NCBI RefSeq assembly: GCF_016903815.1
Contig: NZ_CP069972.1
Direction: 5' to 3' (one strand)
DNA from: Escherichia coli
Lineage (GTDB): Bacteria; Pseudomonadota; Gammaproteobacteria; Enterobacterales; Enterobacteriaceae
Length of the DNA: 64,000 nucleotides
The notes beneath the pieces were generated by a model, which was given only the letters and a program-made list of their open reading frames with translations, did not search any database and was not told the DNA's origin. Positions within the stretch are counted from its first letter, which is position 1. Every line of letters starts with the position of its first letter. The translations under genes were made by a program, and so were the position numbers. Shown here in pieces: positions 26,213 to 63,374 of this stretch.

Positions 26213-26295
26213 GGGCTACTATAATGTTGTCTAGGCATTACAGTAGAGCCCTTGGTTGATTGATAAAAAAATCTCCAGGGGCTTTCTGCTGTATA
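26213..26295 (+). ncRNA. Candidate Sok/PndB-like antisense RNA region over the toxin leader
   Basis: TATAAT-like box at 26220-26225; lies antisense to the expected mok/pndC start upstream of pndA; exact ends not determined. Confidence 0.35.
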
Positions 26296-32539: not shown

Positions 32540-32572
32540 GGCCGCGCCGGATTCTGGCGCGGCCTTTTTTTT
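32540..32572. terminator. Bidirectional terminator between convergent trbC and nikB
   Basis: GGCCGCGCC-loop-GGCGCGGCC then T8. Confidence 0.65.
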
Positions 32573-40504: not shown

Positions 40505-40552
40505 GAAAACGTCTCCTTCTGCTGAATCAGGTCGCCGGGCCGACCGGTTGCT

Positions 40553-41737: not shown

Positions 41738-41761
41738 TCCCGAATCCTCCATAGTCACATG

Positions 41762-42095
41762 TTCTGCGACACCGGGCGGTGCCGTGCCTCCATCTTTGCC
41801 GGGCCTGCAGGGATGCAAGGGCGCAAGGGAAGCCGCAGCCCGACGCACACGGCTGGCGGGAGTTGGAGGGTGAGACCGCGAAATCTGAGCGGGTGAACGA
41901 CCGGAAAATCACGGCAGACGGGAAGGAGGGACCGGGTGACCGCAGCGGTTCATCTTACCTTGCATCCCGCCCGCAGAAGCCCGGCTACGATGGAGGCACG
42001 GCACAGCCCGCACACGACACGGCGGCCACATAACTGAAAACCCACAAGGCCATGCCCCGCATGGCCGGGTAAAAGCGGAGCCGGCGGCGACGTCC
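41762..42095 (-). repeat. Family-B GC-rich structured repeat, copy 1 (Frpo/ssi-like), upstream of ardA
   Basis: ~335 bp near-identical to 51055-51387. Confidence 0.55.
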
Positions 42096-42198: not shown

Positions 42199-42795
42199 TC
42201 ACCGGAGAATATCTGTGATATCCACAAGTTTTCTGTCGCGCAGCCAGTCCTGCGCTTCACGCACCACACAACTGTCCGGTTTCACCGCTTTCAGCGATGA
42301 TGCCAGTCGCTTGATCAACATCACCAGTTCCCGTGTCTGTATGTCCGGCATTGTCTCCGGCGGAGCAGGGGGACTCTCATTTCCGACGCTCATCCCATGC
42401 GCTTCCAGTGTGGCACGGACAAACCAGGCGGCATCGACCAGTTGCTGTCCAATCCAGGCCAGATCGGCATTTCTGTCACGGGCTGCCATTCGCTCGCCCG
42501 ACAGCGCCTTGCTGATATGGCTGCGCACCAGATTATCCAGGAGTGCCTGCGCTTCTTCCGGTGAAAAGCCACCTGGTATCTCTGTGCGCAACAGCCCTTT
42601 CCTGTACAGAAGCTGCAGCAGATCAACCTGCGACCGCACAGCAACTATCAGTACATAACGGACAACATTCGCACTGGCAGTGGTTTCTGTATCATTCAGC
42701 AGTTCTTCCGGATCGTTCCCCCCGGTGTTGCAGAGCAACGGCAACAGAGGTCGCATCCACGCGGGAACCTGGTATTTTTCGTCTGATTTCATCAT
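42199..42795 (-). CDS. Hypothetical protein downstream of psiA (~198 aa)
   Basis: Start adjacent to psiA stop (operon-like); no motif recognised. Confidence 0.45.
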   Translation of the reverse strand: MMKSDEKYQVPAWMRPLLPLLCNTGGNDPEELLNDTETTASANVVRYVLIVAVRSQVDLLQLLYRKGLLRTEIPGGFSPEEAQALLDNLVRSHISKALSGERMAARDRNADLAWIGQQLVDAAWFVRATLEAHGMSVGNESPPAPPETMPDIQTRELVMLIKRLASSLKAVKPDSCVVREAQDWLRDRKLVDITDILR

Positions 42796-43511
42796 ATTAC
42801 GTTCTCCAGCTTGTTCGGGATCATCCACTGCTCAAGTGCACGTACCTGTACCGGTGCACCACGACCGGCCTCACCGGCTTCAAAAATCAGCCGCCAGAGT
42901 GGTTCCTCCTGCCAGAAAAACCGGTCAAATGATGACAGTGATGGAAAACGCCCGCACCACCCCCAGAAAATCGTTTCCAGATCATGCTCCTCAACAACAC
43001 CAGACCAGCGGGACAACCAGCTTCCGACCGTGGCGGGAGTATGAAACGCAAGGTCAATCTGCGCCTGAGCAAAACATGTCTGGTATTCCAGTTCCCGTCG
43101 TTCTGCCTCACGTTCCCGCTGGCGGCTGTATTTCTGCTCTGTCAGCGTGGTTTTCTGACGACGACGCTCACCTTCACGAAAAGGCACGGACGGGAACAGA
43201 CGGTGCCCCGCATCGGATGGCAGGGGAAGAACACAGACTTCCCCAAAACTTTCAATCAGTTTATCCACGGCAGCCAGCCACAGGAGACGGTTGCCATGAA
43301 ATTCCTCCTTCGTCAGCGCAGGGGCAAAAAAGCGGAGATCGGTCAGCGAAATCCGGCGACTGCCATTCAGGCAGCGAAAGAAAGCGGTGGCATAAGGCCA
43401 TGCTGAAAGTGTGCGTCCCTGACGACGACGTTGTTCTGTGACAGCCACCGCCTGCATGGCGGCCTGTTGTTCTGCGCTGAGGGGGATCAGTGCCCGTGAA
43501 CGTGCGCTCAT
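42792..43511 (-). CDS. psiA: PsiA (239 aa)
   Basis: [22 protein letters not shown]...; overlaps psiB stop; psiB-psiA order as in F/ColIb. Confidence 0.85.
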
Positions 43512-43945
43512 GCCTGACCTCCTTCTGCCATCAGGATATGGATGATGTCGTTAACACTGTATCCCTGCGCATCCAGTGTCGCGGCAAGCGCCAGCGTGTG
43601 ACTGATCGCGACAGGCGTGAAGATATGTTGCACCTGAACGACGGCGAAAGGCTGTCCACCACCATTCACCAGAACCAGCATCCAGAGCTGAGAGACGTCT
43701 CCCGGCGAACATAATGCCAGGTGGAAACGTTCGTGGGCTGGCGTGAAACGAACCTGGACGGGGAAAAAGCCCCCGAACTCACTGCCATACTCTCCGTTCA
43801 TCACCCAGTTAGCCGGTGCGTCCACTTCACGCATCACCTCGTGAGTGAGATTACGGCGCATATCGCTTCCCGCAGCACGGATATCTTCATATTCCTGTGC
43901 GTTCATGGACTGCAGGGCATTCAGGGTCAGTTCAGTTTTCATCAC
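43508..43945 (-). CDS. psiB: PsiB, plasmid SOS-inhibition protein (145 aa)
   Basis: [28 protein letters not shown]... closely matches PsiB as I recall it. Confidence 0.9.
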
Positions 43946-46247: not shown

Positions 46248-46304
46248 CCTCATATCTCCGGTGATGCCCCGCACAGGGCGGGGCGGTTGTCACAGTCAGC
46301 CCGA

Positions 46305-46832
46305 TCAGAACGGGATGTCGTCTGAAAACCCGTAATCCTCCCCCTCCGGCGGTTGCGGCTGAGGCTCTGGCTGCGCGGCCTTACGTCCACGGCCTTTCGT
46401 TTTCGCGCCACCTTTTTTCGTCGCGTCAGCACTCTGTGGCTGCCCATTCTGCTGAGGCTTCGGTTGCGCCTGAGCGTTCTGCTGTGGTGCACGTCCCAGC
46501 ATCTGCACGGTGCCCGTGGTCTTAACAAGAATTTCAGTGACGTAACGGGTGATACCGTTATCTTCCCAGCTACGGGTGCGAAGCTGACCTTCGATGTAGA
46601 CCTGCGCACCCTTGCGCAGATATTCACCTGCCACTTCCGCGAGCTTGCCGAACAGCACCACGCGGTGCCATTCCGTCTGCTCCCGCATCTCCCCCGTCTG
46701 TTTGTCACGCCAGCTTTCTGATGTGGCCACCTGCAGGTTTGCCACTGCGCCCCCGTTGGGGATGTAACGGACTTCCGGATCATTGCCCAGACGCCCGACG
46801 AGGATGACCTTGTTGATACCACGTGCACTCAT
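46305..46832 (-). CDS. ssb: Plasmid single-stranded DNA-binding protein (175 aa)
   Basis: OB-fold N-terminus [18 protein letters not shown]; Q/P-rich linker; acidic C-terminal DDIPF tail. Confidence 0.9.
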
Positions 46833-46897
46833 AAGAACCTCCTGACTGAAAGATGTGAGATAAACCGGATACCGGCGACGGGACGTTCATGTGCCCC

Positions 46898-47400
46898 TTC
46901 AGAGGAGCGAAAGCTCCTCCTGCCGTCCACTTCACAGGGGTTTCTCCCCGCAGTGGACCTTTCCGATGGGGGCCCGTTTACCGCCTCACGGGGCAGCTGT
47001 CCGGGGGCGGACGCAAAATTTTTTGCCGGGTTCATGGCTAAAAATTTTGTGGCCGGTGCATCTCACCCTGGACAGATGGAACGGGAGGGGGTTACGTCTG
47101 CCCCCCGGAAAGTCCACAGCGGGGAAACAGGCCGCAGGGGGGGCGGCAGGAGGGAGGACTGCTGCGCCATCAGGCGCAGTTTCCTCACACACCGTCAGGT
47201 GTGCAGGGAGCGCAGGTCACGGCGCGACAGGGGCGGCGCGACCGGAACGGTCGCTGCAAGCCCGGGTTTTCACGCATCGGACCGTAGCGGCAGCCCGAAA
47301 CCGCGCCAGCGGGTTCGGCGGAGACTGGCGGGTGCGCCAGCAGCTGCCCGTCGGAGTCGGGCCTGACGACCGGATGCCGCCAGGCAGCCGGGAGCCGAAG
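46898..47400 (-). repeat. Family-A repeat, copy 3 (Frpo/ssi-like), upstream of ssb
   Basis: ~500 bp near-identical to copy 2; right edge is where the intron begins. Confidence 0.6.
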
Positions 47401-47406: not shown

Positions 47407-49747
47407 GTGCGACAGGAAGTCGCTTAACGTATTGTTTTACATTGATAAAACCAGCTATCCCATTAGCTGTAGCCTACCGGGACAGGCGTTGCCGGCAACG
47501 GCGGGGTCTGAAGCTCCCGGGACAACGAGAGCCGGGCGTCAGCCCGGGTAATGCCCCGTGAGGGGCTTTACCTTGCTGCAAGCATCATGCGGCAGGAGAG
47601 CAAGGCTGGTCAGAAGGGTTAACACATGTGAACTGTTGATAAACACCGTTATCGGCAACAGGCCAAAGATGCTGACAGGCCTGAACCAAAAGGTACGGGG
47701 TCCGGTTGCTACCTCGCGCACAGGGAGCACATGGGCGCAGAGACCCCCGGTGAAGAGACAGAACCCGCCCTGACCCTCTGTATGTTAAGCGGAACCTGGT
47801 AAACCCGTATCGCTGCCTCACAGGCAGGTGAACCGCAAGGAACACTGTTAGCGGTGCGGGCATAGGAGGACGGAAAAAGCGAATGCCCGGCTGTAATAAC
47901 CGGGATACGGGGCAGGTTCCCCGACGCGAAAGCGGGCAGACTTCCGTCTGGTCTTTAATTGCATGAAAAGCTGTAAAGCAGTCAAAAGGATATCAGCGAG
48001 ATGAATACACACATCAGTGTGTCCACGATACCCCACCCGACAGGCTGGCACACCATAAACTGGAAAGCATGCCATGCCCGGGTGCGAAAGCTACAGTTAC
48101 GGATTGCAAAGGCAACCCGACAGCAACAATGGCGGCAGGTCAGAGAACTACAGCGCATCCTCACCCGCTCATTCTCCGGCAAAGCCGTGGCTGTCAGGCG
48201 TGTAACTGAAAATACCGGTAAAAGGACACCCGGTATTGACGGAAAAATATGGCACACACCGAAGGAGAAATGGGAAGGAATATGCAGCCTGAATCTGTGT
48301 GGTTACAGGCCACAGCCACTACGGCGAATACATATCCCAAAATCAAACGGCAAAACGCGACCGCTGGGCATACCCACAATGAGGGACCGGGCCATGCAGG
48401 CACTGTGGCTGCTGGCTCTGGAACCCGTATCCGAGACCACTGCTGACCATAACAGCTATGGTTTCAGACCAATGCGCAGCACGCATGACGCCATTGAGTC
48501 CATTTTTCTGCGGATGAGCCAGAAAGTATCGCCCAAATGGATACTGGAGGGCGATATTAAAGGGTGCTTCGATAACATCAGCCATGACTGGCTGCTTTCC
48601 CATATTCCGATGGACAGGAGACTGCTTAAAAAATGGTTGAAAGCAGGTTACATGGAAAGAGGCGTGTTTAACCATACGAACAGCGGGACACCGCAGGGAG
48701 GCATCATATCCCCTGTTCTCGCCAACATGGCTCTGGACGGACTGGAGAAGGAACTGATGCAAACGTTCAGGAAAAGTGGTTATCACAGTGCAAAGCACCA
48801 GGTGAATTATGTGAGATATGCTGATGATTTCATCTGTTCAGGCAGCTCCCGTGAATTGCTGGAAAATGAGGTCAGACCACTGATTGCAGCTTTCATGCGC
48901 GAACGAGGGCTGGAACTGTCGGAAGAAAAAACAGCGATCACACATATAGATAAAGGCTTCGACTTTTTAGGGCAGAACGTCAGGAAGTACAACGGTAAAA
49001 TGCTGATTAAACCGTCGAAGAAAAACCTGAAGAACTTCCTCTGTAAAGTCAGAGAAATAATTAAACGCAATCCGACGCTCCCGGCATGGAAACTGATAGG
49101 CCAGCTAAACCCGGTGATCCGGGGATGGGCTACCTATCACCGACACGTCGTGGCGAAAGAAACATTTAATTATGTCGACACCCAAATCTGGCGAGCTATA
49201 TGGCGATGGTGTGTAAGACGGCATCCCCGGAAAGGATTGCGGTGGATCGCCGGACGATACTTCTCCTTTGAAGGCAGGCGCTGGATCTTTAAAGCCATAA
49301 CCCCGGAAGGGAAAATTCTGACACTCTTCCGGGCAATGGAAACACCGATAAAGCGCCATATAAAAATCAAAGGCGAAGCAACACCATACACCCCCGGAAT
49401 GGAAATCTACTTTGAACGTCGTCTGGATCTAATCTGGAAAGGCAAATCAAAGAAGATGAAGACAGTAGTTCAACTCTGGAAGAGGCAGGGGAAACACTGT
49501 CCGCAGTGCGGACAACTCATAACCAACCAGACCGGATGGAATATACATCACCGGATCAGGAAAGTTATGGGCGGCAGTGACGAACTGACCAATCTCGAGT
49601 TGTTACATCCGAACTGCCACCGACAGTTACACAGCAGGGAAGCCGGTGCTCACCGAAAGCACTTATAAAGGCTTGAGCGGAGTGCGGGGAAACTCGCACG
49701 CTCCGTTCTTAGGGGGCGGCGGCGCAGCAATGTGCCGCTGCTACCCG
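47407..49747 (+). mobile_element. Group II intron (boundaries approximate)
   Basis: 5' GTGCG at 47407; ORF in domain IV; domain V-like 34-nt hairpin 49675-49708; domain VI-like stem to ~49747. Confidence 0.8.
48001..49668 (+). CDS. Group II intron-encoded reverse transcriptase/maturase with HNH endonuclease (555 aa)
   Basis: RT motifs incl. YADD; maturase X region; C-terminal HNH (HCPQCG...HHRIRKVMGG...HPNCHRQLH). Confidence 0.9.
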   Translation: MNTHISVSTIPHPTGWHTINWKACHARVRKLQLRIAKATRQQQWRQVRELQRILTRSFSGKAVAVRRVTENTGKRTPGIDGKIWHTPKEKWEGICSLNLCGYRPQPLRRIHIPKSNGKTRPLGIPTMRDRAMQALWLLALEPVSETTADHNSYGFRPMRSTHDAIESIFLRMSQKVSPKWILEGDIKGCFDNISHDWLLSHIPMDRRLLKKWLKAGYMERGVFNHTNSGTPQGGIISPVLANMALDGLEKELMQTFRKSGYHSAKHQVNYVRYADDFICSGSSRELLENEVRPLIAAFMRERGLELSEEKTAITHIDKGFDFLGQNVRKYNGKMLIKPSKKNLKNFLCKVREIIKRNPTLPAWKLIGQLNPVIRGWATYHRHVVAKETFNYVDTQIWRAIWRWCVRRHPRKGLRWIAGRYFSFEGRRWIFKAITPEGKILTLFRAMETPIKRHIKIKGEATPYTPGMEIYFERRLDLIWKGKSKKMKTVVQLWKRQGKHCPQCGQLITNQTGWNIHHRIRKVMGGSDELTNLELLHPNCHRQLHSREAGAHRKHL

Positions 49748-49946
49748 ACCAATAAAAGACAGCCAGAAACGGTGACAGTGTCACGGAATATCACACCTGT
49801 TCCCTGCATACAGCCATACACTACCTTCTGACCGGAAAGCCGGGCCGGCAGCGCCGCAGGCGCTGCACCCCGCGTTTCCGGCAGGCGTCAGCCTGCCAGG
49901 GGTTTTCGCGCGGGCTGACAGGCGGCCTCCACCGCCTGCCCCTGTA

Positions 49947-51029: not shown

Positions 51030-51054
51030 GATGTTTTCCTCCGTTGTTCACATA

Positions 51055-51387
51055 TTCCGCGACACCGGGCGGTGCCGTGCCTCCATCTTTGCCGGGCCTG
51101 CAGGGTTGCAAGGGCGCAAGGGAAGCCGCAGCCTGACGCGCACGGCTGACGGGAGTTGAAGGGTGAGACCGCGAAATCTGAGCGGGTGAACGACCGGAAA
51201 ATCACGGCAGACGGGAAGGAGGGACCGGGTGACCGCAGCGGTTCACCTTACCTTGCAACCCGCCCGCAGAAGCCCGGCTACGATGGAGGCACGGCACAGC
51301 CCGCACACGGCGCTGAGGCCACATAACTGAAAACCCACAAGGCCATGCCCCGCATGGCCGGGTAAAGCGGAGCCTGCGGCGACATCC
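51055..51387 (-). repeat. Family-B repeat, copy 2 (Frpo/ssi-like), upstream of klcA-like gene
   Basis: Near-identical to 41762-42095. Confidence 0.55.
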
Positions 51388-54923: not shown

Positions 54924-55275
54924 GGGAATTCTCCTCTCACATGCGGCCTCCATCAGGCCGTGCCGCACCTGTTACCGGGCGACCGCATACGAATGCAGGT
55001 GCGGCCCCGAAGCCGCAGCGCGTGGAGGAGGAACGACGAAACGTGACCGGGTGAGGAGGCCGGCGACAGCGACACACTTGCATCGGATGCAGCCCGGTTA
55101 ACGTGCCGGCACGGCCTGGGTAACCAGGTATTTTGTCCACAGAACCGTGCACAAAATGCTGTGGATAAGCTGGACACAGCAGCCCACAGCAGGCATACAG
55201 CCACACACTCAGAGAATTGAGCGTTTTTTAGTCACAACAATGACATTTGACTGTGTGCGGATTCAGTTATTAGAA

Positions 55276-55295
55276 TACTGTATAAACATACAGCA
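55276..55295 (+). promoter_or_regulatory. LexA (SOS) box upstream of impC
   Basis: TACTGTATAAACATACAGCA fits CTGT-N8-ACAG; 22 nt upstream of impC. Confidence 0.75.
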
Positions 55296-55317
55296 TAAAG
55301 AAAAGGGAGATGAGAAC

Positions 55318-55566
55318 ATGATCCGCATTGAAATTCTTTTCGACCGCCAGAGCACAAAAAACCTCAAATCAGGCACACTTCAGGCGCTACAGAATGAAAT
55401 CGAACAACGTCTGAAACCACACTACCCGGAAATCTGGCTGCGTATAGACCAGGGCAGCGCCCCGTCTGTATCTGTCACAGGAGCCCGCAACGACAAGGAT
55501 AAAGAACGTATCCTGTCTCTGCTGGAAGAAATCTGGCAGGACGACAGCTGGCTGCCTGCAGCATGA
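55318..55566 (+). CDS. impC: ImpC, DinI-like regulator (82 aa)
   Basis: GGGAG RBS; ATG 55318 internal to track ORF; first gene of SOS-boxed operon. Confidence 0.75.
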   Translation: MIRIEILFDRQSTKNLKSGTLQALQNEIEQRLKPHYPEIWLRIDQGSAPSVSVTGARNDKDKERILSLLEEIWQDDSWLPAA

Positions 55567-56000
55567 GTACCGTTTATCACCGTCCGGCTGACCCTTCAGG
55601 CGATGACAGTTACGTGCGACCGTTGTTTGCCGATCGTTGCCAGGCCGGTTTTCCTTCGCCTGCCACTGATTATGCTGAGCAGGAACTGGATCTGAACAGC
55701 TATTGCATCAGCAGACCTGCAGCCACCTTCTTTCTGCGCGCCAGCGGTGAATCGATGAACCAGGCTGGCGTGCAGAATGGTGATCTGCTGGTAGTGGACA
55801 GGGCCGAAAAACCACAACACGGGGACATCGTTATCGCTGAGATCGACGGTGAGTTCACCGTCAAACGACTGCTGTTGCGCCCACGCCCGGCACTGGAGCC
55901 GGTTTCAGACAGCCCGGAGTTCCGCACACTGTATCCGGAAAACATCTGTATTTTTGGTGTTGTCACTCACGTGATACACAGGACGCGGGAGTTACGCTGA
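55563..56000 (+). CDS. impA: ImpA, UmuD/MucA-like S24 peptidase (145 aa)
   Basis: LexA/UmuD-type fold with RASGESM and lysine dyad; ATGA overlap with impC. Confidence 0.85.
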   Translation: MSTVYHRPADPSGDDSYVRPLFADRCQAGFPSPATDYAEQELDLNSYCISRPAATFFLRASGESMNQAGVQNGDLLVVDRAEKPQHGDIVIAEIDGEFTVKRLLLRPRPALEPVSDSPEFRTLYPENICIFGVVTHVIHRTRELR

Positions 56001-57271
56001 TGTTTGCACTGGCTGATATCAACAGTTTCTACGCCTCATGTGAAAAAGTTTTCCGCCCGGACCTTCGCAACGAACCGGTCATCGTACTCAGCAATAACGA
56101 TGGCTGTGTGATCGCGCGCAGCCCGGAGGCAAAAGCCCTTGGCATCAGAATGGGGCAGCCCTGGTTTCAGGTGAGACAAATGCGCCTGGAGAAGAAAATA
56201 CATGTATTTTCCAGCAATTATGCGCTGTACCACAGCATGAGCCAACGGGTTATGGCTGTTCTGGAGTCGCTTTCTCCCGCAGTTGAGCCCTACTCAATTG
56301 ATGAAATGTTCATTGATTTGCGGGGGATAAATCATTGCATCTCTCCGGAGATTTTTGGTCATCAGCTCAGGGAACAGGTAAAGAGCTGGACAGGACTCAC
56401 CATGGGGGTGGGCATTGCGCCTACAAAAACGCTGGCTAAAAGTGCCCAGTGGGCAACAAAGCAATGGCCACAGTTTTCCGGTGTGGTCGCGCTGACGGCA
56501 GAAAACCGTAATCGGATCTTGAAGCTACTGGGGTTGCAGCCAGTTGGTGAGGTCTGGGGAGTAGGACGCAGACTGACGGAAAAGCTGAATGCGCTGGGTA
56601 TTAACACAGCACTGCAGCTGGCGCAGGCTAACACGGCATTCATCCGGAAAAACTTCAGCGTCATTCTTGAGCGTACGGTACGCGAACTCAACGGCGAGTC
56701 CTGCATATCTCTGGAAGAAGCACCGCCGGCAAAACAGCAGATTGTCTGTAGTCGCAGTTTTGGTGAACGAATCACAGACAAAGATGCCATGCACCAGGCT
56801 GTTGTTCAGTATGCAGAGCGGGCCGCAGAGAAACTACGTGGGGAGCGTCAGTATTGCCGGCAGGTGACGACATTTGTACGGACATCCCCCTTTGCAGTAA
56901 AAGAACCCTGTTACAGCAATGCCGCTGTGGAAAAGCTTCCATTGCCCACACAGGACAGCCGGGACATTATTGCCGCAGCATGCAGAGCGTTAAACCATGT
57001 CTGGCGTGAAGGGTACCGCTATATGAAGGCAGGTGTCATGCTGGCTGATTTCACACCATCGGGTATAGCGCAGCCGGGATTATTTGATGAAATCCAGCCC
57101 CGTAAAAACAGTGAAAAGTTAATGAAAACACTCGATGAACTGAACCAGTCGGGAAAAGGGAAAGTGTGGTTTGCGGGGCGAGGAACCGCCCCTGAATGGC
57201 AAATGAAACGGGAAATGCTTTCTCCTGCGTATACCACCAGATGGACAGATTTGCCAGTAGCCCAGTTATGA
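56000..57271 (+). CDS. impB: ImpB, UmuC/MucB-like Y-family polymerase subunit (423 aa)
   Basis: MFALADINSFYASCEKVFRPDLRNEPVIVLSNNDGCVIARS... Y-family N-terminus. Confidence 0.9.
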   Translation: MFALADINSFYASCEKVFRPDLRNEPVIVLSNNDGCVIARSPEAKALGIRMGQPWFQVRQMRLEKKIHVFSSNYALYHSMSQRVMAVLESLSPAVEPYSIDEMFIDLRGINHCISPEIFGHQLREQVKSWTGLTMGVGIAPTKTLAKSAQWATKQWPQFSGVVALTAENRNRILKLLGLQPVGEVWGVGRRLTEKLNALGINTALQLAQANTAFIRKNFSVILERTVRELNGESCISLEEAPPAKQQIVCSRSFGERITDKDAMHQAVVQYAERAAEKLRGERQYCRQVTTFVRTSPFAVKEPCYSNAAVEKLPLPTQDSRDIIAAACRALNHVWREGYRYMKAGVMLADFTPSGIAQPGLFDEIQPRKNSEKLMKTLDELNQSGKGKVWFAGRGTAPEWQMKREMLSPAYTTRWTDLPVAQL

Positions 57272-57292
57272 ATATGTAATCCACCCATAATA

Positions 57293-57366
57293 TTGTTATC
57301 CTGTTATCCTGCTATCTTGTTATCTTGTTATCTTGTTATCTTGTTATCTTGTTATCTTGTTATCTT
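57293..57366. repeat. Upstream array of ~9 direct 8-bp repeats (TTGTTATC): centromere-like iterons
   Basis: Tandem unit read directly. Confidence 0.8.
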
Positions 57367-57379
57367 AATTAATCTATAA

Positions 57380-57490
57380 ATCAAATACTTAACAACTTGC
57401 TAAGTTGTTAACATAACAAAAATAATTGCATGGTTCGCGTTCAGATGGCAATATTAAGTTGTTAACTTAACAGCTTAATATGAGGCTATA
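57380..57490 (+). promoter_or_regulatory. par promoter/operator region with palindromes
   Basis: TTAACAACTTGCTAAGTTGTTAA and TTAAGTTGTTAACTTAA upstream of parA-like start. Confidence 0.4.
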
Positions 57491-58117
57491 ATGATAATAG
57501 TATTAGGTAGTCAAAAGGGTGGGGTAGGTAAAAGTACACTGGCGGTATCTATAGCTGCGTATCTGATGTCACTAGGCAATAGAGTGATTATTGTCGACGC
57601 AGATGACCAGAAATCAGTATTAACCTGGTACAACAATCGCCCTGAAGATCTCCCTCATATTCCGGTTACAGGCGCGACAGGTAACATCAAAGCCATGTTA
57701 AAGGAACACGAAAAATCCTATGATTTTGTTATTGCAGACTGTGCTGGCCGTGATAGCGCAGAAATGCGTAGTGGATTGATGGCCGCAGATGTATTCATTT
57801 CTCCTTTGCGCCCATCTCAGATGGACCTGGATGTTGTGCCTCATACATGCTCCGTTTTTACAGCAGCAAAAGATTTTAATGAGGATGTTCGGGGATATCT
57901 CGTTTTAAACATGACGCCCACAAATATGTTTGTTAATGAAGCCAATGAGGCAGCTGAAGTACTTAAGGATTACCCTGAAATGCATCTGGCAAACTCCCGG
58001 GTATGTGATCGTAAAGCACATCGAGATGCTTGGGCCGAATCAATGACAATTTTTGAAACGCAAAATGATAAAGCCCAGCAAGAAATCGAAGCGTTAGTGA
58101 AAGAGGTTATTCTGTGA
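57491..58117 (+). CDS. parA: ParA/ParF-like small Walker-type partition ATPase (208 aa)
   Basis: Deviant Walker A GSQKGGVGKST. Confidence 0.85.
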   Translation: MIIVLGSQKGGVGKSTLAVSIAAYLMSLGNRVIIVDADDQKSVLTWYNNRPEDLPHIPVTGATGNIKAMLKEHEKSYDFVIADCAGRDSAEMRSGLMAADVFISPLRPSQMDLDVVPHTCSVFTAAKDFNEDVRGYLVLNMTPTNMFVNEANEAAEVLKDYPEMHLANSRVCDRKAHRDAWAESMTIFETQNDKAQQEIEALVKEVIL

Positions 58118-58416
58118 GAAATAGAGCAAACACTTCACCTCGTGACGAGGCAGCATTTATTAACGGTGGCACGGCTGGCCTTGATAATACCAAAAAGTCA
58201 TCAGATAAATCATCGGTTGTAAGCAAAGCAAAACCAGTGAGTATTTCTTTTTTTGAAGAAAACCTAAAAGACATTGATGCCCTTATAACGGCTGAGATGG
58301 TTTCAGGTAAAGGCAGAGTGAATCGTTCTGATGTTGTCAGGGCGGCGGTAGAAGCACTTAAAACACTATCAAAAACAGAGGTATCACGATTGATAGCAGA
58401 AGTAAAACAAAGATAA
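58114..58416 (+). CDS. ParG-like centromere-binding protein with C-terminal RHH (100 aa)
   Basis: Translationally coupled to parA; C-terminal GRVNRSDVVRAAVEALK RHH-like. Confidence 0.6.
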   Translation: MRNRANTSPRDEAAFINGGTAGLDNTKKSSDKSSVVSKAKPVSISFFEENLKDIDALITAEMVSGKGRVNRSDVVRAAVEALKTLSKTEVSRLIAEVKQR

Positions 58417-58420
58417 CACC

Positions 58421-58486
58421 TTGTTATCTTGTTATCTTGTTATCTTGTTATCTTGTTATCTTGTTATCTTGTTATCTTGTTATCTT
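58421..58486. repeat. Downstream array of ~8 direct 8-bp repeats (TTGTTATC)
   Basis: Same unit as upstream array. Confidence 0.8.
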
Positions 58487-58541
58487 CAATGTATTTTAGG
58501 ATGACCTATGTTGAATAGAACCTAAAACAAAACAAATATTA

Positions 58542-58833
58542 ATAGGGGTCCGCTTGGAAAAGGGAAATTTTCCCACGCTAAGAGAATTGAGTTGAACGAG
58601 TGGTTACATCCAGGCCAGCTAACTCACTGAACGTAAAGGCTGTACGAAATGTTCCGGCCGTCCGATAACCGTTTGGCTTACTTCCGTACATTCCCTTGCG
58701 TAGATGTACAGAATTGTACGATTTCGGACACCAAAACCGCTGTTGTCCCGCCATTCTGGCGATTCCTGAAAGTCCTTTGACTAAAAAATAGTCTTAACGT
58801 GGTTTATTTTCCGAATTCCAAGCGGACCCCTAT
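58542..58833. mobile_element. 292-bp element bounded by 18-bp perfect terminal inverted repeats (MITE/IS-remnant-like)
   Basis: ATAGGGGTCCGCTTGGAA at 58542-58559, reverse complement at 58816-58833; no ORF inside. Confidence 0.4.
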
Positions 58834-59035
58834 CAGGCCTGCCGTGGGGATTTTGTGGTGCGTCTCGACGGCAGCACCTGTCTGCAGTTATGGAATAAAG
58901 AAGGCAGGGTGGTACGCCGGGAGGGCGATCCGCTGGAAGTGGCGCAGTGGCTGCTGGCCTGTCATGACGCAGGAATAGAAGTTCGCGTACAGATAAATGA
59001 AAGTGCCGCTCCGTAAGAACACGCCTGTGCACGGT

Positions 59036-59383
59036 TTACACATCATCCCATGGTGGCAGCCGGTTAACTTTCCTGCGCCACCAGTGGAAAGAGGCCATGC
59101 ACAGTCCGAACAAAAAACCCCCCGTGATACTTATAATAATGGCCTCACCTGCCACCATTCCTGACGGCCCCCAGTAGATAAACCACATTGCACATCCCCA
59201 GGAAATGCCCCATAAGCCCCCCGTCAGCACCGTGACCTGCCAGAACGGCATAAAGGGTAATGGCGGAAGCCGGATACCCAGCCGCCATAGAATACGCAGA
59301 AGAGGAGGGGCATAATTGCTCCGCCACATCTTTTTGCTGTCCATCAGGGCAATGGCCCGGGCTTTTTTCTGCTCAAAGGTCAC
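59036..59383 (-). CDS. Hypothetical Trp-rich membrane protein (115 aa, GTG start)
   Basis: GGAGG 7 nt before GTG; 2-3 TM helices; adjacent to immunity gene. Confidence 0.45.
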   Translation of the reverse strand: MTFEQKKARAIALMDSKKMWRSNYAPPLLRILWRLGIRLPPLPFMPFWQVTVLTGGLWGISWGCAMWFIYWGPSGMVAGEAIIISITGGFLFGLCMASFHWWRRKVNRLPPWDDV

Positions 59384-59511
59384 AGGAGCACCTCCGTTCC
59401 ATGATGTAAACGTGACACAGCTTATTGTTATTGATTATTATTATCATGCTGTGGTTATGTTGTCATGCATCAGTACACTGACAAAAGTGCAAAAGAAAGG
59501 AAAACAGGCAG

Positions 59512-59847
59512 ATGAACAGAAAATATTATTTTAATAATATGTGGTGGGGATGGGTGACGGGGGGATATATGCTGTATATGTCATGGGATTATGATTTTAA
59601 ATACAGATTACTGTTCTGGTGTATTTCTCTCTGCGGAATGGTTTTGTATCCAGTTGCAAAATGGTATATTGAGGATACAGCTCTGAAATTTACCCGGCCT
59701 GATTTCTGGAACAGCGGTTTTTTTGCTGATACACCTGGAAAAATGGGATTGCTTGCTGTTTATACGGGTACTGTTTTCATATTATCTCTTCCGTTAAGTA
59801 TGATATATACTCTTTCTGTTATTATAAAAAGGCTGTCTGTAAGATAG
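59512..59847 (+). CDS. iia: Colicin Ia-type immunity protein (111 aa)
   Basis: MNRKYYFNNMWWGWVTGGYMLYMSW...; 3 TM helices; opposite strand to colicin gene as in pore-former colicins; Ia versus Ib rests on recalled 111-aa length. Confidence 0.8.
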   Translation: MNRKYYFNNMWWGWVTGGYMLYMSWDYDFKYRLLFWCISLCGMVLYPVAKWYIEDTALKFTRPDFWNSGFFADTPGKMGLLAVYTGTVFILSLPLSMIYTLSVIIKRLSVR

Positions 59848-59866
59848 ACAGCCTGTCTTATATTTT
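59821..59866. terminator. Bidirectional terminator shared by convergent colicin and immunity genes
   Basis: GGCTGTCT-loop-AGACAGCC with T/A-rich flanks. Confidence 0.55.
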
Positions 59867-59868
59867 AT

Positions 59869-61749
59869 TTAAATACCCCAGAACTTATTCGCTTTTTCCA
59901 CAAGCGATTCATCAATCAGCGCACCGGTGACAGCCATCAGTAAACCATACCCGATAATGCCTAAAGCGCTTCCGGTAAGAATACTGAAGACCAGTGCAAC
60001 AAGAGCCGTTGCGGCATTGCCTGCTATAATGGCTTCTGTTTTAACAAAAAGAGGACGCCAGTTCTCTGTCCGGACAGCCTTACCAAACTCAGTGATCCAG
60101 TCAGCAAGACTTGTAAATTTTCCTGCATATCCCAGTCCCCGACTGAATCTGTTCAGATTAGACGATATATCAGACAGCTTCACAGACTCAAGGGCTGCGG
60201 CAATCGCTGCACGATCTTTTGCATTAATTTTTTTGTTAATGTCAGCCCGGTACTTTTCATACGTTTTTAATGCCTCTTCAACATTACGTATTTTCTTCCC
60301 TTTAGCCTGCCCGGCCATCTCTCTGGCTAACTGCTCAGCTTTTGCACCATATTTTTCTGAAACTGATTTCAGGAACTCTGTTGTGAAATTAATTGCGTCT
60401 TTCGTTTCCTTCAGTTCATCCTGTTTTCTTTTCTCTTCCGCTATCTTCTGATTGATGCCGGCAAGCTGGTTACGGATATTCTCTTTTTCCTTCAACAGGG
60501 CATTAAGAGCGTCATTTGCATGCTTTTGCTCATTTGTTCTGGCACTGAGGTTATTTCTCGCCGAATTTACCGCAGATTCAGCAGAGGTGATTTTATTTCT
60601 GGCATCAAGCAATCTTTGCCGTAACTTATCCCATTCAGCAACTTCAGCATTATAAATTTTCTTGTCACCTTCCACATCCTCTGTCACCACCGGATTCCGG
60701 TCATTCAGAATATTGCGTTTATAGTCCAGACCGGAATGGGTCAGAAGATAATTCAGGTTTGCACGGTTATCGATGACTGCGCTGGTTGTGATTTTTATCG
60801 TACCGGCAAATCTCGGATCACCGCTCACAACAATAGAATGATTTGTTGATGAACGCCCCGGGAATTTTTCAGGGGAAACTATCGTTTTGCCGTCAGGCGT
60901 GTTTTTCTGTTGCGTCAGCTGTTGTTCAGCTCTGGTTAATGCATTACGGGCCGTGTTAAGCGATTCCGTCACTGAACTGAGTTTATTCCGGGCCTCTGAA
61001 ATGGCCCTGTCATTCCGTGTCTGCTGCCCGAGCAGACGGGCCTGTTGTGCATCAAGAACGGCAAGGGCTGCCCCGCCATTTTTTTCCAGCTCTGACAACC
61101 GCGTGTCCAGAATACCTTTTCTGCGCTCGTATTCAGCAAGCATATCAGCGGCCTTCTTGTCTGCGTTCTGCGCATCCTTCTGCCGTTTTTCAGCCTGTTC
61201 GATTAACGACCTGGCCTCCCGGGGAGATATACGAAGAGAATCAGCATCAGCAAAGAGCATCCGGCTCTCTGTATGCAGCCGGAGGGCATCATATCCGGCG
61301 ATTTCAGTACGGAATCCGTATTCTCTCAGCTCTGCCTGCAGGAGTCTGAACTCCTGTCGTGTAATATCAGCGGCATCTGCGTTTCCGGCACGGAGTGTTT
61401 TCAGTGTGTTTTCATCTTTTTCCCTTGCAGCAATCGCCGCAGAGAGGCGTTTTCCGGCTTCAGTACGCTTATTCTCATTCTCTTTCTGCTGCGCGCTGAG
61501 CGTGTTTTTGTACGCTGTGATTTCCTTGTCCCTTTTTTCGATATCACTTCGGGTTGGGGAATCATCAACCCACTCGTTTCCGCCCCAGATGGTTTTGTTC
61601 CCGAAGGAACTCCATGCAGGCGGGGTACCATGAAAGACATCGACACGTGGAGGGTTTACATAAATATCAACGGCCATAATTTCATGGCCATCTGAATCAT
61701 ACCCCAGCGATTCTGCACCGGGATTTGTAATACGTACAGGGTCAGACAT
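59869..61749 (-). CDS. cia: Colicin Ia/Ib-family pore-forming colicin (626 aa)
   Basis: MSDPVRITNPGAESLGYDSDGHEIMAVDIYVNPPRVD...; long coiled-coil; C-terminal hydrophobic hairpin; 626 aa. Confidence 0.9.
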   Translation of the reverse strand: MSDPVRITNPGAESLGYDSDGHEIMAVDIYVNPPRVDVFHGTPPAWSSFGNKTIWGGNEWVDDSPTRSDIEKRDKEITAYKNTLSAQQKENENKRTEAGKRLSAAIAAREKDENTLKTLRAGNADAADITRQEFRLLQAELREYGFRTEIAGYDALRLHTESRMLFADADSLRISPREARSLIEQAEKRQKDAQNADKKAADMLAEYERRKGILDTRLSELEKNGGAALAVLDAQQARLLGQQTRNDRAISEARNKLSSVTESLNTARNALTRAEQQLTQQKNTPDGKTIVSPEKFPGRSSTNHSIVVSGDPRFAGTIKITTSAVIDNRANLNYLLTHSGLDYKRNILNDRNPVVTEDVEGDKKIYNAEVAEWDKLRQRLLDARNKITSAESAVNSARNNLSARTNEQKHANDALNALLKEKENIRNQLAGINQKIAEEKRKQDELKETKDAINFTTEFLKSVSEKYGAKAEQLAREMAGQAKGKKIRNVEEALKTYEKYRADINKKINAKDRAAIAAALESVKLSDISSNLNRFSRGLGYAGKFTSLADWITEFGKAVRTENWRPLFVKTEAIIAGNAATALVALVFSILTGSALGIIGYGLLMAVTGALIDESLVEKANKFWGI

Positions 61750-61790
61750 TCGGTATCTCCTTCATCCTCTGAGGAAAACAAATGAATTAA

Positions 61791-61820
61791 CTGCTTACGC
61801 ATATGGATACATATACAGTA
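61791..61820 (-). promoter_or_regulatory. Overlapping double LexA box in the colicin promoter
   Basis: Coding-strand TACTGTATATGTATCCATATGCGTAAGCAG, ~40 nt upstream of the start. Confidence 0.55.
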
Positions 61821-62027
61821 TTAATTTATTAAGGAGAAAATGGCATGTCAAGATTTGATGATAGTGATTATCATTAACATGAAGTGATGTTACACCGTTC
61901 AGAAAGCCTGCTGACGCTGTGGCAGCATCACAGTCTGGGTATTCTCTGGTGCAATACAAAAACCGGACTTTCCCGTAACAACAGACAATGTTACGGGAAA
62001 AGTTACAGAACTGAGCCACAAAATATC

Positions 62028-63374
62028 TCAGTACCTGAGATGCATAAAAACACCGTACATATGTTTCTTAAAAGGGGGATGCTCGTTATCCAGCCATTTC
62101 GGTGGATCGGTATGCAGAACACCAATCTGCTTCATGCCGGTATGCTGCCTGGATTTTCTCGCGCAGTAATCACTGTCTTCATATCCCATCGTTTCGATGA
62201 CCACTCTGGCCGTCTTTCCGTCAGGAGCCCTTGCTGTGACAATGAAATCCGGCAGTACATATTTCTTTTCACCATTAACATAAACTTCTGTATCAAACAG
62301 GGGCCTTTCCAGACTTAATTCCGGCGTACCTGGCTTTCTTTTAAGCCAGCTGGCCACATTCAGAAGAGCAGTGAGCGTGTTTCGTTCCAGTTTGCTGTCC
62401 ACAGGCACCGGACATGTCAGTTGATAAAGAGCATGAGCATACCCTTCACTGCAGATGATTCTGCCATCGGCACTCCGGCAAAAAGCAAGAATAACCCAGT
62501 AAGGGGGACGTATTCCGCCCTGCGCTTCACCATTAATACTGATCCCCCGCACAGGTCTGATGACCTGAATATTACCGTTCGCCCAGTGAATTTCCACAGC
62601 ATCACGACAGATGTGCTGCGCCATAAAAATCTGAAAGAACATATGCTTTCTTCTGGCAGGCCAGTGTCGTTCTGAATTCTCCAGCGTTTCCATTAACCGC
62701 TCCTGAGACCTTTCAGACATTCCTGGCCGGAAATGGATAATTTCAGATAAGGCTCTTCCCCGAATATACTCCTGCTGTAGTGTAACCTGCCGTATGGCAT
62801 CAAGACACTCACGATAATTAGTCCGGATACGGGGATTAGCCAGGGAATCCAGTTTATTCAGCCCTGCATCTTCAATAAGCGACAGGAGTAAACGGCCAAG
62901 GCGCGGACGTTTCTTGCGAACGGAGGAGCGCTCACCATTATGGTAAGCAGAGCGGGCCTGCAGTCTGATAACAGAATTACTGTCATCAGGTGGTAAAAAG
63001 TTTCTGTAATTTATACGGGTGCTAACGGGATGCCGGCTTGCTCCGAAGGATGTTTCCTCTTCATTTCCGGATAACTGACGATACATGGGGCATTCAGGTG
63101 CATGCTCATGATTAAAACTGGACAGATAAAGAGTACCCGTATTGTTTTTAAGAGCAGCAAAATTCATGGCCGGCGAATCTCCCGGAATACAGTCACACTG
63201 TAACCATGCATCATACTCACGCATTTCCCGGAGAAGATCATTGGCCAGGTTATGTTGTGCCATGGTTGCTGGCCTTTTCAGTCCACAGACCGTCTTTACT
63301 GCAGTCTCTTCCTCACTGCTAAGCTCCCGAATCACTTTGCCCCGGGGATTCTTCTTTACAAGTATCATTGGCAT
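62028..63374 (-). CDS. Hypothetical protein (448 aa)
   Basis: AAGGAG before ATG 63374 (M24 of track ORF); no motif recognised with confidence. Confidence 0.5.
   Translation of the reverse strand: MPMILVKKNPRGKVIRELSSEEETAVKTVCGLKRPATMAQHNLANDLLREMREYDAWLQCDCIPGDSPAMNFAALKNNTGTLYLSSFNHEHAPECPMYRQLSGNEEETSFGASRHPVSTRINYRNFLPPDDSNSVIRLQARSAYHNGERSSVRKKRPRLGRLLLSLIEDAGLNKLDSLANPRIRTNYRECLDAIRQVTLQQEYIRGRALSEIIHFRPGMSERSQERLMETLENSERHWPARRKHMFFQIFMAQHICRDAVEIHWANGNIQVIRPVRGISINGEAQGGIRPPYWVILAFCRSADGRIICSEGYAHALYQLTCPVPVDSKLERNTLTALLNVASWLKRKPGTPELSLERPLFDTEVYVNGEKKYVLPDFIVTARAPDGKTARVVIETMGYEDSDYCARKSRQHTGMKQIGVLHTDPPKWLDNEHPPFKKHMYGVFMHLRY

What the first reader, a model, noticed from the sequence alone, without database searches (positions are those of the whole stretch)
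55276..61820. Two SOS-boxed modules (impCAB and colicin) on the same replicon as the SOS inhibitor psiB
Seen: a consensus-like LexA box before impC and an overlapping double box before the colicin gene. Established: both operon types are LexA-repressed, and PsiB limits SOS induction during conjugation.
Basis: partly seen in the sequence, partly recalled or inferred. Interest (0 to 1): 0.3.

Follow-up and report, generated by a model that had tools for sequence, protein, structure and literature searches.

The report
Known SOS-controlled modules on IncI1 plasmid
This is the ordinary, already described backbone of a ColIb-P9-type (IncI1) conjugative plasmid: a damage-inducible mutagenic polymerase operon (impCAB) and a colicin Ia gene, each behind a LexA operator, sharing the plasmid with the conjugation-time SOS inhibitor psiB.

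Summary
The window is an IncI1/I-gamma conjugative plasmid. impC (DinI-like), impA (UmuD-like) and impB (UmuC-like) lie at 55318-57271. A near-consensus LexA box, TACTGTATAAACATACAGCA (55276-55295), abuts the -10 of the best promoter match. No random sequence of this size gave a box this good.

The colicin is colicin Ia (59869-61749, minus strand), with a convergent Ia immunity gene. Its promoter carries one usable LexA box, TACTGTATATGTATCCATAT (61801-61820). The "second overlapping box" scores far outside the binding range and is in the wrong register. Published work on the identical colicin Ib promoter also describes a single LexA site.

psiB (43508-43945, minus strand) is present in the leading region, beside psiA, ssb and ardA.

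The reference plasmid ColIb-P9 has the same trio. Near-identical promoters have been shown to respond to LexA loss (imp, on pTF2) and to mitomycin C and iron chelation (cib, in Salmonella SL1344).

A third LexA-boxed module, the DinQ-like toxin dqlB, lies at about 25.1-25.35 kb.

Verdict: real, correctly interpreted in outline, one detail wrong, nothing new. Low interest.

The parts
55247..55276 (+). imp promoter: -35 TTGACT (55247-55252), 18-nt spacer, -10 TAGAAT (55271-55276)
   Evidence: Best sigma-70-like match in 55000-62100, 10 of 12 positions. Invariant in ColIb-P9 and pSA53.
55276..55295 (.). Main LexA operator of impCAB: TACTGTATAAACATACAGCA
   Evidence: HI' 1.7. None of 200 simulated sequences had a site below 3. 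It differs by one base from the pTF2 box TACTGTATATACATACAGCA, published HI 1.60.
55249..55268 (.). Weak second LexA-like box over the -35 and spacer of the imp promoter (reverse complement AACTGAATCCGCACACAGTC)
   Evidence: HI' 13.5. It differs by one base from the second imp box listed for pTF2, published HI 13.49. Borderline; function not shown.
55318..55566 (+). impC, DinI-like protein (82 aa)
   Evidence: Pfam DinI 8.2e-18. Matches PDB 1ghh DinI at 6.8e-06. 82/82 identical to ColIb-P9 ImpC. Below the NCBIfam DinI equivalog cut-off (41 vs 111 bits).
55563..56000 (+). impA, UmuD-like self-cleaving subunit (145 aa)
   Evidence: Pfam Peptidase_S24 3.3e-24. NCBIfam UmuD subfamily 143 bits against a cut-off of 110. 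Aligns to UmuD 8gmt/1umu. Ala28-Gly29 cleavage site, Ser64 and Lys101 are present. 145/145 identical to ColIb-P9.
56000..57271 (+). impB, UmuC-like Y-family polymerase (423 aa)
   Evidence: Pfam IMS, IMS_C and DUF4113. NCBIfam UmuC subfamily 797 bits against a cut-off of 431. Asp6 and the SIDE motif (Asp101-Glu102) are present.
59512..59847 (+). Colicin Ia immunity gene (111 aa), convergent with cia
   Evidence: 110/111 identical to the protein annotated 'colicin 1A immunity protein' in NZ_CP076281. Only 26/109 identical to the Ib immunity protein of ColIb-P9.
59830..59854 (.). Bidirectional terminator hairpin between the immunity gene and cia
   Evidence: Terminator-like site found on both strands.
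59869..61749 (-). cia, colicin Ia (626 aa)
   Evidence: PDB 1cii colicin Ia, 1278 bits over residues 23-624. Pfam Colicin_Ia and the colicin pore domain. The C-terminal 200 aa are only 88/200 identical to colicin Ib.
61801..61820 (-). Single LexA operator of cia: TACTGTATATGTATCCATAT, read on the minus strand
   Evidence: HI' 9.2-10.2. Identical in ColIb-P9 and in the SL1344 cib promoter. That promoter is reported to have one LexA site and to be induced by mitomycin C.
61789..61808 (-). Degenerate 'second box' ATCCATATGCGTAAGCAGTT. Only the CAG half-site is intact. Probably non-functional or a relic.
   Evidence: HI' 21-22, offset 12 nt from box 1. Position 61800 varies (G or A) between plasmids.
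61823..61851 (-). cia promoter: -35 TTGACA (61851-61846), 17-nt spacer, -10 TAAATT (61828-61823)
   Evidence: 10 of 12 positions match. Invariant in three plasmids.
61860..61878 (-). Fur box GTTAATGATAATCACTATC, 17 of 19 positions matching the consensus, just upstream of the cia -35
   Evidence: At up to 3 mismatches the window holds 2 sites (3 strand matches) against 0.01 expected; this is the better site, with 2 mismatches. Identical in the SL1344 cib promoter, for which Fur/iron control is published.
43508..43945 (-). psiB, conjugation-time SOS inhibitor. The annotated homologue starts one codon inside this ORF.
   Evidence: Pfam PsiB 9.5e-57. NCBIfam equivalog 266 bits against a cut-off of 100. 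142/144 identical to ColIb-P9 PsiB.
42792..43511 (-). psiA
   Evidence: NCBIfam PsiA 376 bits against a cut-off of 243.
46305..46832 (-). Plasmid ssb, head of the ssb...psiB gene string. A structured repeat element lies upstream at 46876-47400.
   Evidence: 175-aa ORF with an SSB-type sequence ending DDIPF. Its homologue is annotated as ssb in L001 and L002. The repeat family has three copies. Folded as ssDNA it gives z = -4.4.

Best explanation
The window is a ColIb-P9-type IncI1/I-gamma conjugative plasmid, and the finding describes part of its normal interface with the host SOS system.

(1) imp operon. In an established host, chromosomal LexA binds the near-consensus operator at 55276-55295, which abuts the -10 and covers the expected start of the imp promoter, and keeps impCAB off. 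After heavy DNA damage, RecA filaments trigger LexA self-cleavage and the operon is derepressed. ImpA then cuts itself at Ala28-Gly29 using Ser64 and Lys101. ImpA' with ImpB forms a Pol V-like translesion polymerase. DinI-like ImpC tempers RecA co-protease activity.

(2) cia promoter. It is double-locked. Fur-Fe(II) sits at 61860-61878 just upstream of the -35. One LexA dimer sits at 61801-61820 just downstream of the -10. Full colicin Ia synthesis needs both iron limitation and SOS. The immunity gene is transcribed convergently from its own promoter. There is no lysis gene.

(3) psiB. It lies about 8 kb from oriT in the leading region and has the same orientation as ssb and ardA. It is expressed transiently from the incoming single strand in a new recipient. 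It binds free RecA, so the incoming ssDNA does not trigger LexA cleavage.

PsiB and the LexA-controlled modules therefore act at different times: PsiB at entry, the modules in established cells.

What is shown here: the sequence features, the gene identities and their identity to characterised plasmids. What is shown in the literature for near-identical sequences: LexA-dependent ImpCAB levels, induction of cib by mitomycin C and an iron chelator (DTPA), and IncI1 PsiB blocking SOS in E. coli. What is inferred: late induction of imp because of the tight operator, the biochemical roles of ImpA, ImpB and ImpC, and the temporal separation.
For: - The LexA box statistics and the positions of the boxes relative to the promoters support real operators.
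- The protein family assignments and catalytic residues hold.
- ColIb-P9 (NC_002122) carries cib and its immunity gene, impCAB, ssb, psiB, psiA and ardA in the same order and orientations.
- pTF2 carries the identical PsiB protein plus impCAB. ImpC, ImpA and ImpB rise 21-, 9- and 2-fold without functional LexA.
- pCol1B9_SL1344 carries the identical PsiB protein, and its cib promoter is identical to the window over all operator elements. cib is still induced by mitomycin C and DTPA there, and a native single-copy reporter was among those used. A resident psiB therefore does not block SOS induction in established cells.
- umuDC-like operons commonly bound the leading-region anti-defence island, and about 90% are oriented against T-strand transcription. 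The window fits this: imp is on the + strand, while ardA, psiB and ssb are on the - strand.
Against: - No experiment was done on this exact sequence.
- The imp box has a T-to-A change at position 10 relative to pTF2 and ColIb-P9.
- The cia box has a non-canonical CAT half-site and only a moderate score. About 0.1-2 sites of that quality are expected by chance per window, so its reality rests on position, conservation and published reporter data rather than on score alone.
- The pTF2 result used a lexA mutant, which bypasses RecA and says nothing about PsiB.
- My HI' matrix was rebuilt from recalled sites, not from the original Lewis table.
Confidence: 0.9

Rival explanations
1. The colicin operator is a true overlapping double LexA box. 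Two LexA dimers would bind co-operatively, as in ColE1 and most group A colicins.
For: Most colicin promoters have two overlapping boxes. A perfect CAG half-site lies at 61793-61791, downstream of box 1. With a 3-nt gap the sequence can be aligned to the second ColE1 box.
Against: The second 20-mer has HI' 21-22, against 4.7 and 8.2 for the two ColE1 boxes. It is offset by 12 nt rather than 15, so its left half-site would be CCAT. PMC4675545 states that the colicin Ib promoter has one LexA binding site and that Fur provides the second lock. One position inside it varies between plasmids.
Confidence: 0.08
2. Functional coupling. PsiB on IncI1 plasmids is kept chiefly to stop the plasmid's own LexA-controlled cargo from firing in a naive recipient when ssDNA enters. 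That cargo is the Pol V-like polymerase, the colicin and the DinQ-like toxin. On this reading the co-residence is an adaptive circuit rather than shared ancestry.
For: Three LexA-boxed modules (imp, cia, dqlB) and two RecA modulators (PsiB, DinI-like ImpC) sit on one replicon. imp and cia lie within about 26 kb of oriT on the leading side. The trio recurs in ColIb-P9.
Against: psiB is also found in IncF and IncN plasmids; whether those carry such modules was not examined here. pCol1B9_SL1344 keeps psiB without the imp genes, and pTF2's Table 1 lists no colicin among its LexA-box genes and its text never mentions one. LexA is pre-existing in the recipient and binds as soon as the DNA is double-stranded. 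imp is oriented against T-strand transcription. No paper found in the searches proposes this link.
Confidence: 0.12
3. The boxes are chance matches to a short AT-rich palindrome and have no regulatory role.
For: The cia box score (HI' about 9-10) falls in a range where 0.1-2 hits per 64 kb arise by chance. Several similar-scoring hits lie inside coding regions, for example 56592-56611 inside impB.
Against: The imp box is far beyond any simulated site. Both boxes sit directly at the -10 of the two best promoter matches in the region. Near-identical promoters respond to LexA loss or mitomycin C.
Confidence: 0.01

Closest known systems
ColIb-P9 (NC_002122), reference IncI1 plasmid of Shigella sonnei
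   Same: Same backbone order: yagA, colicin with a convergent immunity gene, impCAB, DUF1281, methylase, ssb, parB-like, psiB, psiA, ardA, oriT, nikAB. ImpC and ImpA are 100% identical, ImpB 98%, PsiB 142/144. The colicin promoter is 155/161 identical with the same LexA box. The imp promoter has both boxes.
   Different: ColIb-P9 makes colicin Ib. The C-terminal 200 aa are 44% identical and the immunity protein 24% identical. About 10 kb of other genes separate the colicin from imp, against about 2.6 kb here. ColIb-P9 has a TnpB gene near psiA and no group II intron. Its imp box has T where the window has A at position 10.
pTF2 (NC_032100), IncI1 blaCTX-M-1 plasmid studied in PMC12211044
   Same: Same PsiB protein accession as in ColIb-P9. 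impCAB has two LexA boxes, published HI 1.60 and 13.49. The dqlB LexA box is identical to window 25326-25345. ImpCAB is experimentally LexA-controlled.
   Different: Each imp box differs from the window by one base. No colicin is listed among pTF2's LexA-box genes in Table 1, and the paper's text never mentions one; only the first 50 kb of the 93-kb record were inspected.
pCol1B9_SL1344 (NC_017718) colicin Ib promoter
   Same: The Fur box, -35, -10 and LexA box are identical to the window, with 4 differences in 161 nt, none in these elements. Regulation by mitomycin C and iron chelation has been shown. It carries the ColIb-P9 PsiB protein.
   Different: It encodes colicin Ib, not Ia. The imp genes are absent, but a near-perfect orphan LexA box remains at their former position (L003 17123-17142).
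Chromosomal umuDC operon of E. coli (Pol V)
   Same: A LexA-repressed operon with a very strong operator. A self-cleaving S24 subunit is paired with a Y-family polymerase. ImpA aligns to UmuD across the cleavage site and the Ser/Lys dyad. ImpB scores 797 bits on the UmuC model.
   Different: imp has a third, leading gene (DinI-like impC) in the same operon. The cleavage site is Ala-Gly rather than Cys-Gly. It is plasmid-borne, at the edge of the leading region.
ColE1-type colicin promoters with overlapping double SOS boxes
   Same: The LexA operator lies immediately downstream of the -10 of a strong promoter. Box 1 begins with the same CTGTATAT.
   Different: ColE1 has two good boxes sharing one base (HI' 4.7 and 8.2). 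cia has one moderate box and a decayed second one (HI' about 21), and adds a Fur box. cia has no lysis gene.

Membership tests
LexA (SOS) operator, E. coli type | 16-bp palindromic core CTG-N10-CAG within TACTG(TA)5CAGTA, with a heterology index below about 12.6-15 | tested here: met
   The imp box is CTGTATAAACATACAG, HI' 1.7. The cia box 1 is CTGTATATGTATCCAT, HI' 9.2-10.2, with one half-site CAT. The HI' scale was checked against 10 published HI values, r = 0.97.
LexA (SOS) operator, E. coli type | The operator overlaps or abuts the -35/-10/+1 of the regulated promoter | tested here: met
   The imp box starts at the last base of the -10. The cia box starts 3 nt after the -10.
LexA (SOS) operator, E. 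coli type | LexA binding and DNA-damage or lexA-dependent expression | not testable with these tools
   Shown in the literature for near-identical promoters: pTF2 ImpCAB and SL1344 cib.
Colicin-type overlapping double SOS box | Two LexA boxes, each of binding quality, sharing 1-2 bp of their 16-bp cores (15-nt offset) | tested here: not met
   The second candidate has HI' 21-22 and a 12-nt offset. The ColE1 control has HI' 4.7 and 8.2 with a 15-nt offset. The literature reports one LexA site in the colicin Ib promoter.
Fur box | 19-bp GATAATGATAATCATTATC-like site at an iron-regulated promoter | tested here: met
   17 of 19 positions match at 61860-61878, 8 nt upstream of the -35. Expected matches at up to 3 mismatches: 0.01 per window. 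Iron regulation is shown for the identical cib promoter.
UmuD/MucA/ImpA (S24 self-cleaving subunit) | S24 fold with a Ser/Lys dyad and an Ala-Gly or Cys-Gly cleavage site before the GFPSPA motif | tested here: met
   Ala28-Gly29, Ser64 and Lys101 align with UmuD Cys24-Gly25, Ser60 and Lys97 (residue numbers recalled from memory). NCBIfam subfamily score is above the cut-off.
UmuC/MucB/ImpB (Y-family polymerase) | IMS catalytic core with the N-terminal Asp and the SIDE acidic motif, a little-finger domain and the UmuC-type C-terminus | tested here: met
   Pfam IMS, IMS_C, IMS_HHH and DUF4113. Asp6 and Asp101-Glu102 are present. NCBIfam UmuC scores 797 bits against a cut-off of 431.
DinI | An approximately 80-aa DinI fold. 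Orthology requires passing the NCBIfam equivalog cut-off. | tested here: inconclusive
   Pfam DinI scores 65 bits against a cut-off of 24, and PDB 1ghh matches at 6.8e-06. The NCBIfam DinI equivalog gives 41 bits against a cut-off of 111. ImpC is therefore DinI-like but not a DinI orthologue. RecA modulation was not tested.
Colicin Ia (versus Ib) | 626-aa colicin with the Ia/Ib receptor-binding domain, an Ia-type pore domain and a cognate 111-aa Ia immunity protein | tested here: met
   PDB 1cii at 1278 bits. 623/626 identical to the homologue in pSA53 (NZ_CP076281), whose adjacent immunity gene is annotated colicin 1A. Immunity protein 110/111 identical to that Ia immunity protein and 26/109 to the Ib one.
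PsiB | PsiB family protein encoded in the leading region next to psiA and ssb | tested here: met
   NCBIfam equivalog 266 bits against a cut-off of 100. psiA overlaps its end. ssb lies 2.4 kb upstream in the same orientation.
PsiB | Transient early expression in recipients and inhibition of RecA filament formation | not testable with these tools
   Published for ColIb-P9, R64 and F (cited). A structured repeat upstream of ssb is consistent with this but does not prove it.

The most novel reading that the evidence does not exclude
The plasmid carries a small self-contained 'SOS interface'. It has three LexA-boxed modules (impCAB, cia, and the DinQ-like toxin dqlB with its AgrB-like antisense RNA) and two RecA modulators (PsiB and DinI-like ImpC). 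On the novel reading, PsiB is selected mainly to keep the plasmid's own mutagenic and toxic LexA-controlled cargo silent during ssDNA entry into a naive recipient. The usual view is that it protects the host's general SOS state.
Probability: 0.12. Interest if true: 0.35.

Novelty: already known. Interest (0 to 1): 0.08.

Why it matters
It matters little as a discovery. The same arrangement is present in the reference plasmid ColIb-P9, and the imp and colicin promoter regions each occur in more than a thousand sequenced plasmids. The regulation of each part has been published.

The value of the check lies in correct annotation:
- colicin Ia expression here should be read as Fur plus LexA double-locked, not as a double LexA box;
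- impCAB marks the far edge of the leading-region anti-defence island;
- the plasmid has a third LexA-boxed module (dqlB).

The only open question it touches is whether PsiB's benefit to the plasmid partly comes from silencing the plasmid's own SOS cargo at entry. That question is testable but speculative.

Tried and rejected
- My first pattern search, CTGT-N8-CAG, was one base too short (15 nt) and was discarded in favour of CTG-N10-CAG.
- The original papers could not be read because they are not held in the library: Gillor 2008 on bacteriocin SOS boxes, Mankovich 1986 on colicins Ia/Ib, Runyen-Janecky 1999 on Shigella impCAB, and the Cascales 2007 colicin review. Their content is used only as cited by papers I could read.
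- The Lewis 1994 heterology matrix was not available. I rebuilt an equivalent from 28 recalled E. coli sites and validated it against 10 published values.
- I scored every register of a second LexA box in the cia promoter. None scored below 21, so the double-box reading was rejected.
- I looked for LexA boxes near psiB and ssb. None was convincing. The best nearby hit, 47631-47650, lies inside the group II intron.
- Supplementary Figure S2 of PMC3879352, the annotated cib/imm promoter, is an image and could not be read.
- NAR 2026 PMC12826799 has no mention of umuDC, LexA or colicin.
- An ORF at 46250-46828 that I first took for ssb had no family hits. The true ssb is in another frame at 46305-46832.
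- Accession HE654725 was not in the collections; NC_017718 was used instead.

Full report
**What the window is**

The 7.1-kb stretch 55000-62100 matches thousands of enterobacterial plasmids. It is colinear at 98-99% identity with IncI1/I-gamma conjugative plasmids such as NZ_CP076281. The rest of the window holds IncI1 tra/trb genes, the NikB relaxase (32571-35270, minus strand) and a leading region with ardA, psiA, psiB, a ParB-like gene and ssb, all on the minus strand. The finding therefore lies on a ColIb-P9-type plasmid backbone.

**The impC box**

The sequence TACTGTATAAACATACAGCA lies at 55276-55295. I scored it with a Lewis-style heterology index, HI', built from 28 E. coli LexA sites recalled from memory. 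On the ten boxes whose HI is published for the IncI1 plasmid pTF2, HI' correlates at r = 0.97 with the published values.

The imp box scores 1.7, the best site in the window. In 200 first-order Markov simulations of the window, no site scored below 3 and the lowest was 5.9. The box starts at the last base of the -10 of the best sigma-70-like match in the region, TTGACT-18-TAGAAT at 55247-55276. It ends 22 nt before the impC ATG.

A second, borderline box lies at 55249-55268 over the -35 (HI' 13.5). It corresponds, with one base changed, to the second imp box listed for pTF2.

**The colicin box**

On the minus strand the promoter reads, in order:
- TTGACA (61851-61846);
- a 17-nt spacer;
- TAAATT (61828-61823);
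- AA;
- TACTGTATATGTATCCATAT (61820-61801);
- GCGTAAGCAGTTAA.

The first 20-mer scores HI' 9.2-10.2. Its right half-site is CAT instead of CAG.

The only register that uses the downstream CAG is ATCCATATGCGTAAGCAGTT (61808-61789). It scores 21-22 and is offset 12 nt from box 1. The authentic ColE1 double box, read from NC_001371 (TGCTGTATATAAAACCAGTGGTTATATGTACAGTA), scores 4.7 and 8.2 with a 15-nt offset. The "overlapping double box" is therefore not supported.

This agrees with PMC4675545, which states that the colicin Ib promoter has one LexA site and that a Fur site upstream of the -35 provides the second lock. The Fur box is present here: GTTAATGATAATCACTATC at 61878-61860 matches 17 of 19 consensus positions, against 0.01 matches expected per window at up to 3 mismatches.

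**Gene identities**

- ImpC is DinI-like. Pfam gives 8.2e-18 and PDB 1ghh gives 6.8e-06, but it falls below the NCBIfam DinI equivalog cut-off.
- ImpA is UmuD-like. It has the Ala28-Gly29 cleavage site, Ser64 and Lys101.
- ImpB is UmuC-like. It scores 797 bits against a cut-off of 431 and has Asp6 and the SIDE motif.
- The colicin is Ia, not Ib. PDB 1cii gives 1278 bits. The first 225 residues are identical to ColIb-P9 colicin Ib, but only 88 of the last 200 are. The convergent 111-aa immunity protein is 110/111 identical to an annotated Ia immunity protein and 26/109 to the Ib one.
- A bidirectional terminator (59830-59854) separates the two genes, and there is no lysis gene.
- PsiB (43508-43945, minus strand) scores 266 bits against the NCBIfam equivalog cut-off of 100. 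It is 142/144 identical to the ColIb-P9 PsiB protein.

**Comparison with characterised plasmids**

ColIb-P9 (NC_002122) carries the same trio in the same order and orientations: the colicin with its immunity gene, impCAB, and ssb-psiB-psiA-ardA next to oriT and nikAB. Its colicin promoter is 155/161 identical to the window, with the same LexA box. Its imp promoter has both boxes.

pCol1B9_SL1344 (NC_017718) has a cib promoter identical to the window over the Fur box, -35, -10 and LexA box. It carries the ColIb-P9 PsiB protein. On that plasmid cib is induced by mitomycin C, by the iron chelator DTPA, and maximally by both; a native single-copy reporter was among those used. A resident psiB therefore does not prevent SOS induction in established cells.

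pTF2 (NC_032100) carries that same PsiB protein together with impCAB. In a LexA-defective host, ImpC rose 21-fold, ImpA 9-fold and ImpB 2-fold.

A survey of leading regions reports that umuDC-like operons commonly form the far boundary of the anti-defence island. About 90% of them are oriented against T-strand transcription. The window fits exactly: ardA, psiB and ssb are on the minus strand, pointing toward oriT at about 35.7 kb, and impCAB is on the plus strand about 19.5 kb from oriT.

In the plasmid collection of 72,556 records, the imp promoter region occurs in 2,491 records and the cia/cib promoter in 1,266.

**Mechanism**

The best reading is temporal separation.
- At entry, PsiB is made from the incoming strand. 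Structured repeat elements lie upstream of ssb and other leading genes. PsiB blocks RecA filament formation, so LexA stays intact.
- Once the plasmid is established, psiB is quiet and host LexA governs the plasmid promoters.
- The imp promoter has a very tight operator, so it is expected to open only under strong or prolonged damage.
- The cia promoter has a moderate operator backed by Fur, so it opens fully only under combined iron limitation and SOS.

The biochemical roles of ImpA', ImpB and ImpC are inferred from homology.

**Rivals**

- A true double LexA box at cia is unlikely (0.08).
- A chance origin of the boxes is excluded for imp and very unlikely for cia, given its position, its conservation and the published reporter data.
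- Adaptive coupling is not excluded but has no direct support (0.12). On that idea PsiB is retained to silence the plasmid's own SOS cargo at entry. psiB persists on pCol1B9_SL1344, which has lost the imp genes, and psiB is also found in IncF and IncN plasmids.

**Verdict**

Everything is already known, so novelty is nil and interest is low.

Noticed in passing
window 25111-25553: A third LexA-boxed module. The box ACCTGTTTGTTCAGCCAGGA (25326-25345, HI' 10.6) is identical to the pTF2 dqlB box (published HI 11.64). It lies about 120 nt upstream, on the minus strand, of a DinQ-like 31-36-aa hydrophobic ORF (25111-25221, minus strand). An Rfam AgrB antisense RNA hit lies at 25466-25553 (55 bits against a gathering score of 40).
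   Followed up: partly
window 59427-59445: A second Fur-like box, GATAATAATAATCAATAAC, matching 16 of 19 consensus positions. It lies in the intergenic region between the DUF6404 gene and the colicin Ia immunity gene and overlaps the predicted -10 hexamers of both divergent promoters. It is identical in ColIb-P9 upstream of the Ib immunity gene, within a block conserved up to about 25 nt before the start codon. It may mean the immunity gene or DUF6404 is iron-regulated. I found no statement on this in the papers read.
   Followed up: partly
window 47451-49749: A complete group II intron on the + strand. Rfam group-II-D1D4-7 matches at 47451-47600 and domain V/VI at 49673-49749. The RT-maturase-HNH ORF lies at 48001-49668. 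The intron is inserted in the leading region about 50 nt from the structured repeat upstream of ssb. It is absent from ColIb-P9 at this position. Its sense strand is the inferred transferred strand.
   Followed up: no
window 37243-37494, 40533-41055, 46876-47400; also 41755-42054 and 51048-51347: Repeat families in the leading region. One has three copies at 80-96% identity. The copy upstream of ssb folds as ssDNA with z = -4.4. These are likely ssi/Frpo-type single-strand promoter elements. A separate 300-nt repeat (96% identical) precedes ardA and a second antirestriction-like gene.
   Followed up: partly
window 27-46: A LexA-like box, AACTGAATATACAACCAGGC, with HI' 7.4, the second-best site in the window. 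About 0.1 sites below 9 are expected by chance. It lies inside the 3' end of traE, about 200 nt upstream of traF. That is just outside the -200 limit used in the pTF2 box survey. Its function is unknown.
   Followed up: partly
L003 (NC_017718) 17123-17142: pCol1B9_SL1344 has no annotated imp genes but keeps a near-perfect orphan LexA box, TGCTGTATATATATACAGTA (HI' 0.3), at the position where the imp promoter would be, next to the DUF1281 gene. This suggests the operon was deleted and its operator left behind.
   Followed up: no
window 24762-25046: A 94-aa ORF convergent with dqlB. It corresponds by gene order to pTF2 HTE32_RS00140, the hypothetical protein '140'. That protein was reported 2-fold up in the LexA-defective strain with no predicted SOS box. 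My scan also found no LexA-like site with HI' below 15 upstream of it.
   Followed up: no
window 26028-26335: A pnd/hok-sok type I toxin-antitoxin. A Hok-family ORF lies at 26028-26183 (minus strand) and an Rfam sok RNA hit at 26178-26335 (134 bits).
   Followed up: no
window 56526-56545 and 56592-56611: Two LexA-like sites (HI' 11.3 and 10.4) inside the impB coding region. The second is conserved in ColIb-P9. They are probably chance matches. Overall the window has more sites with HI' below 12 than the simulations (18 strand-hits against a mean of 2.2), perhaps because of compositional patchiness.
   Followed up: no
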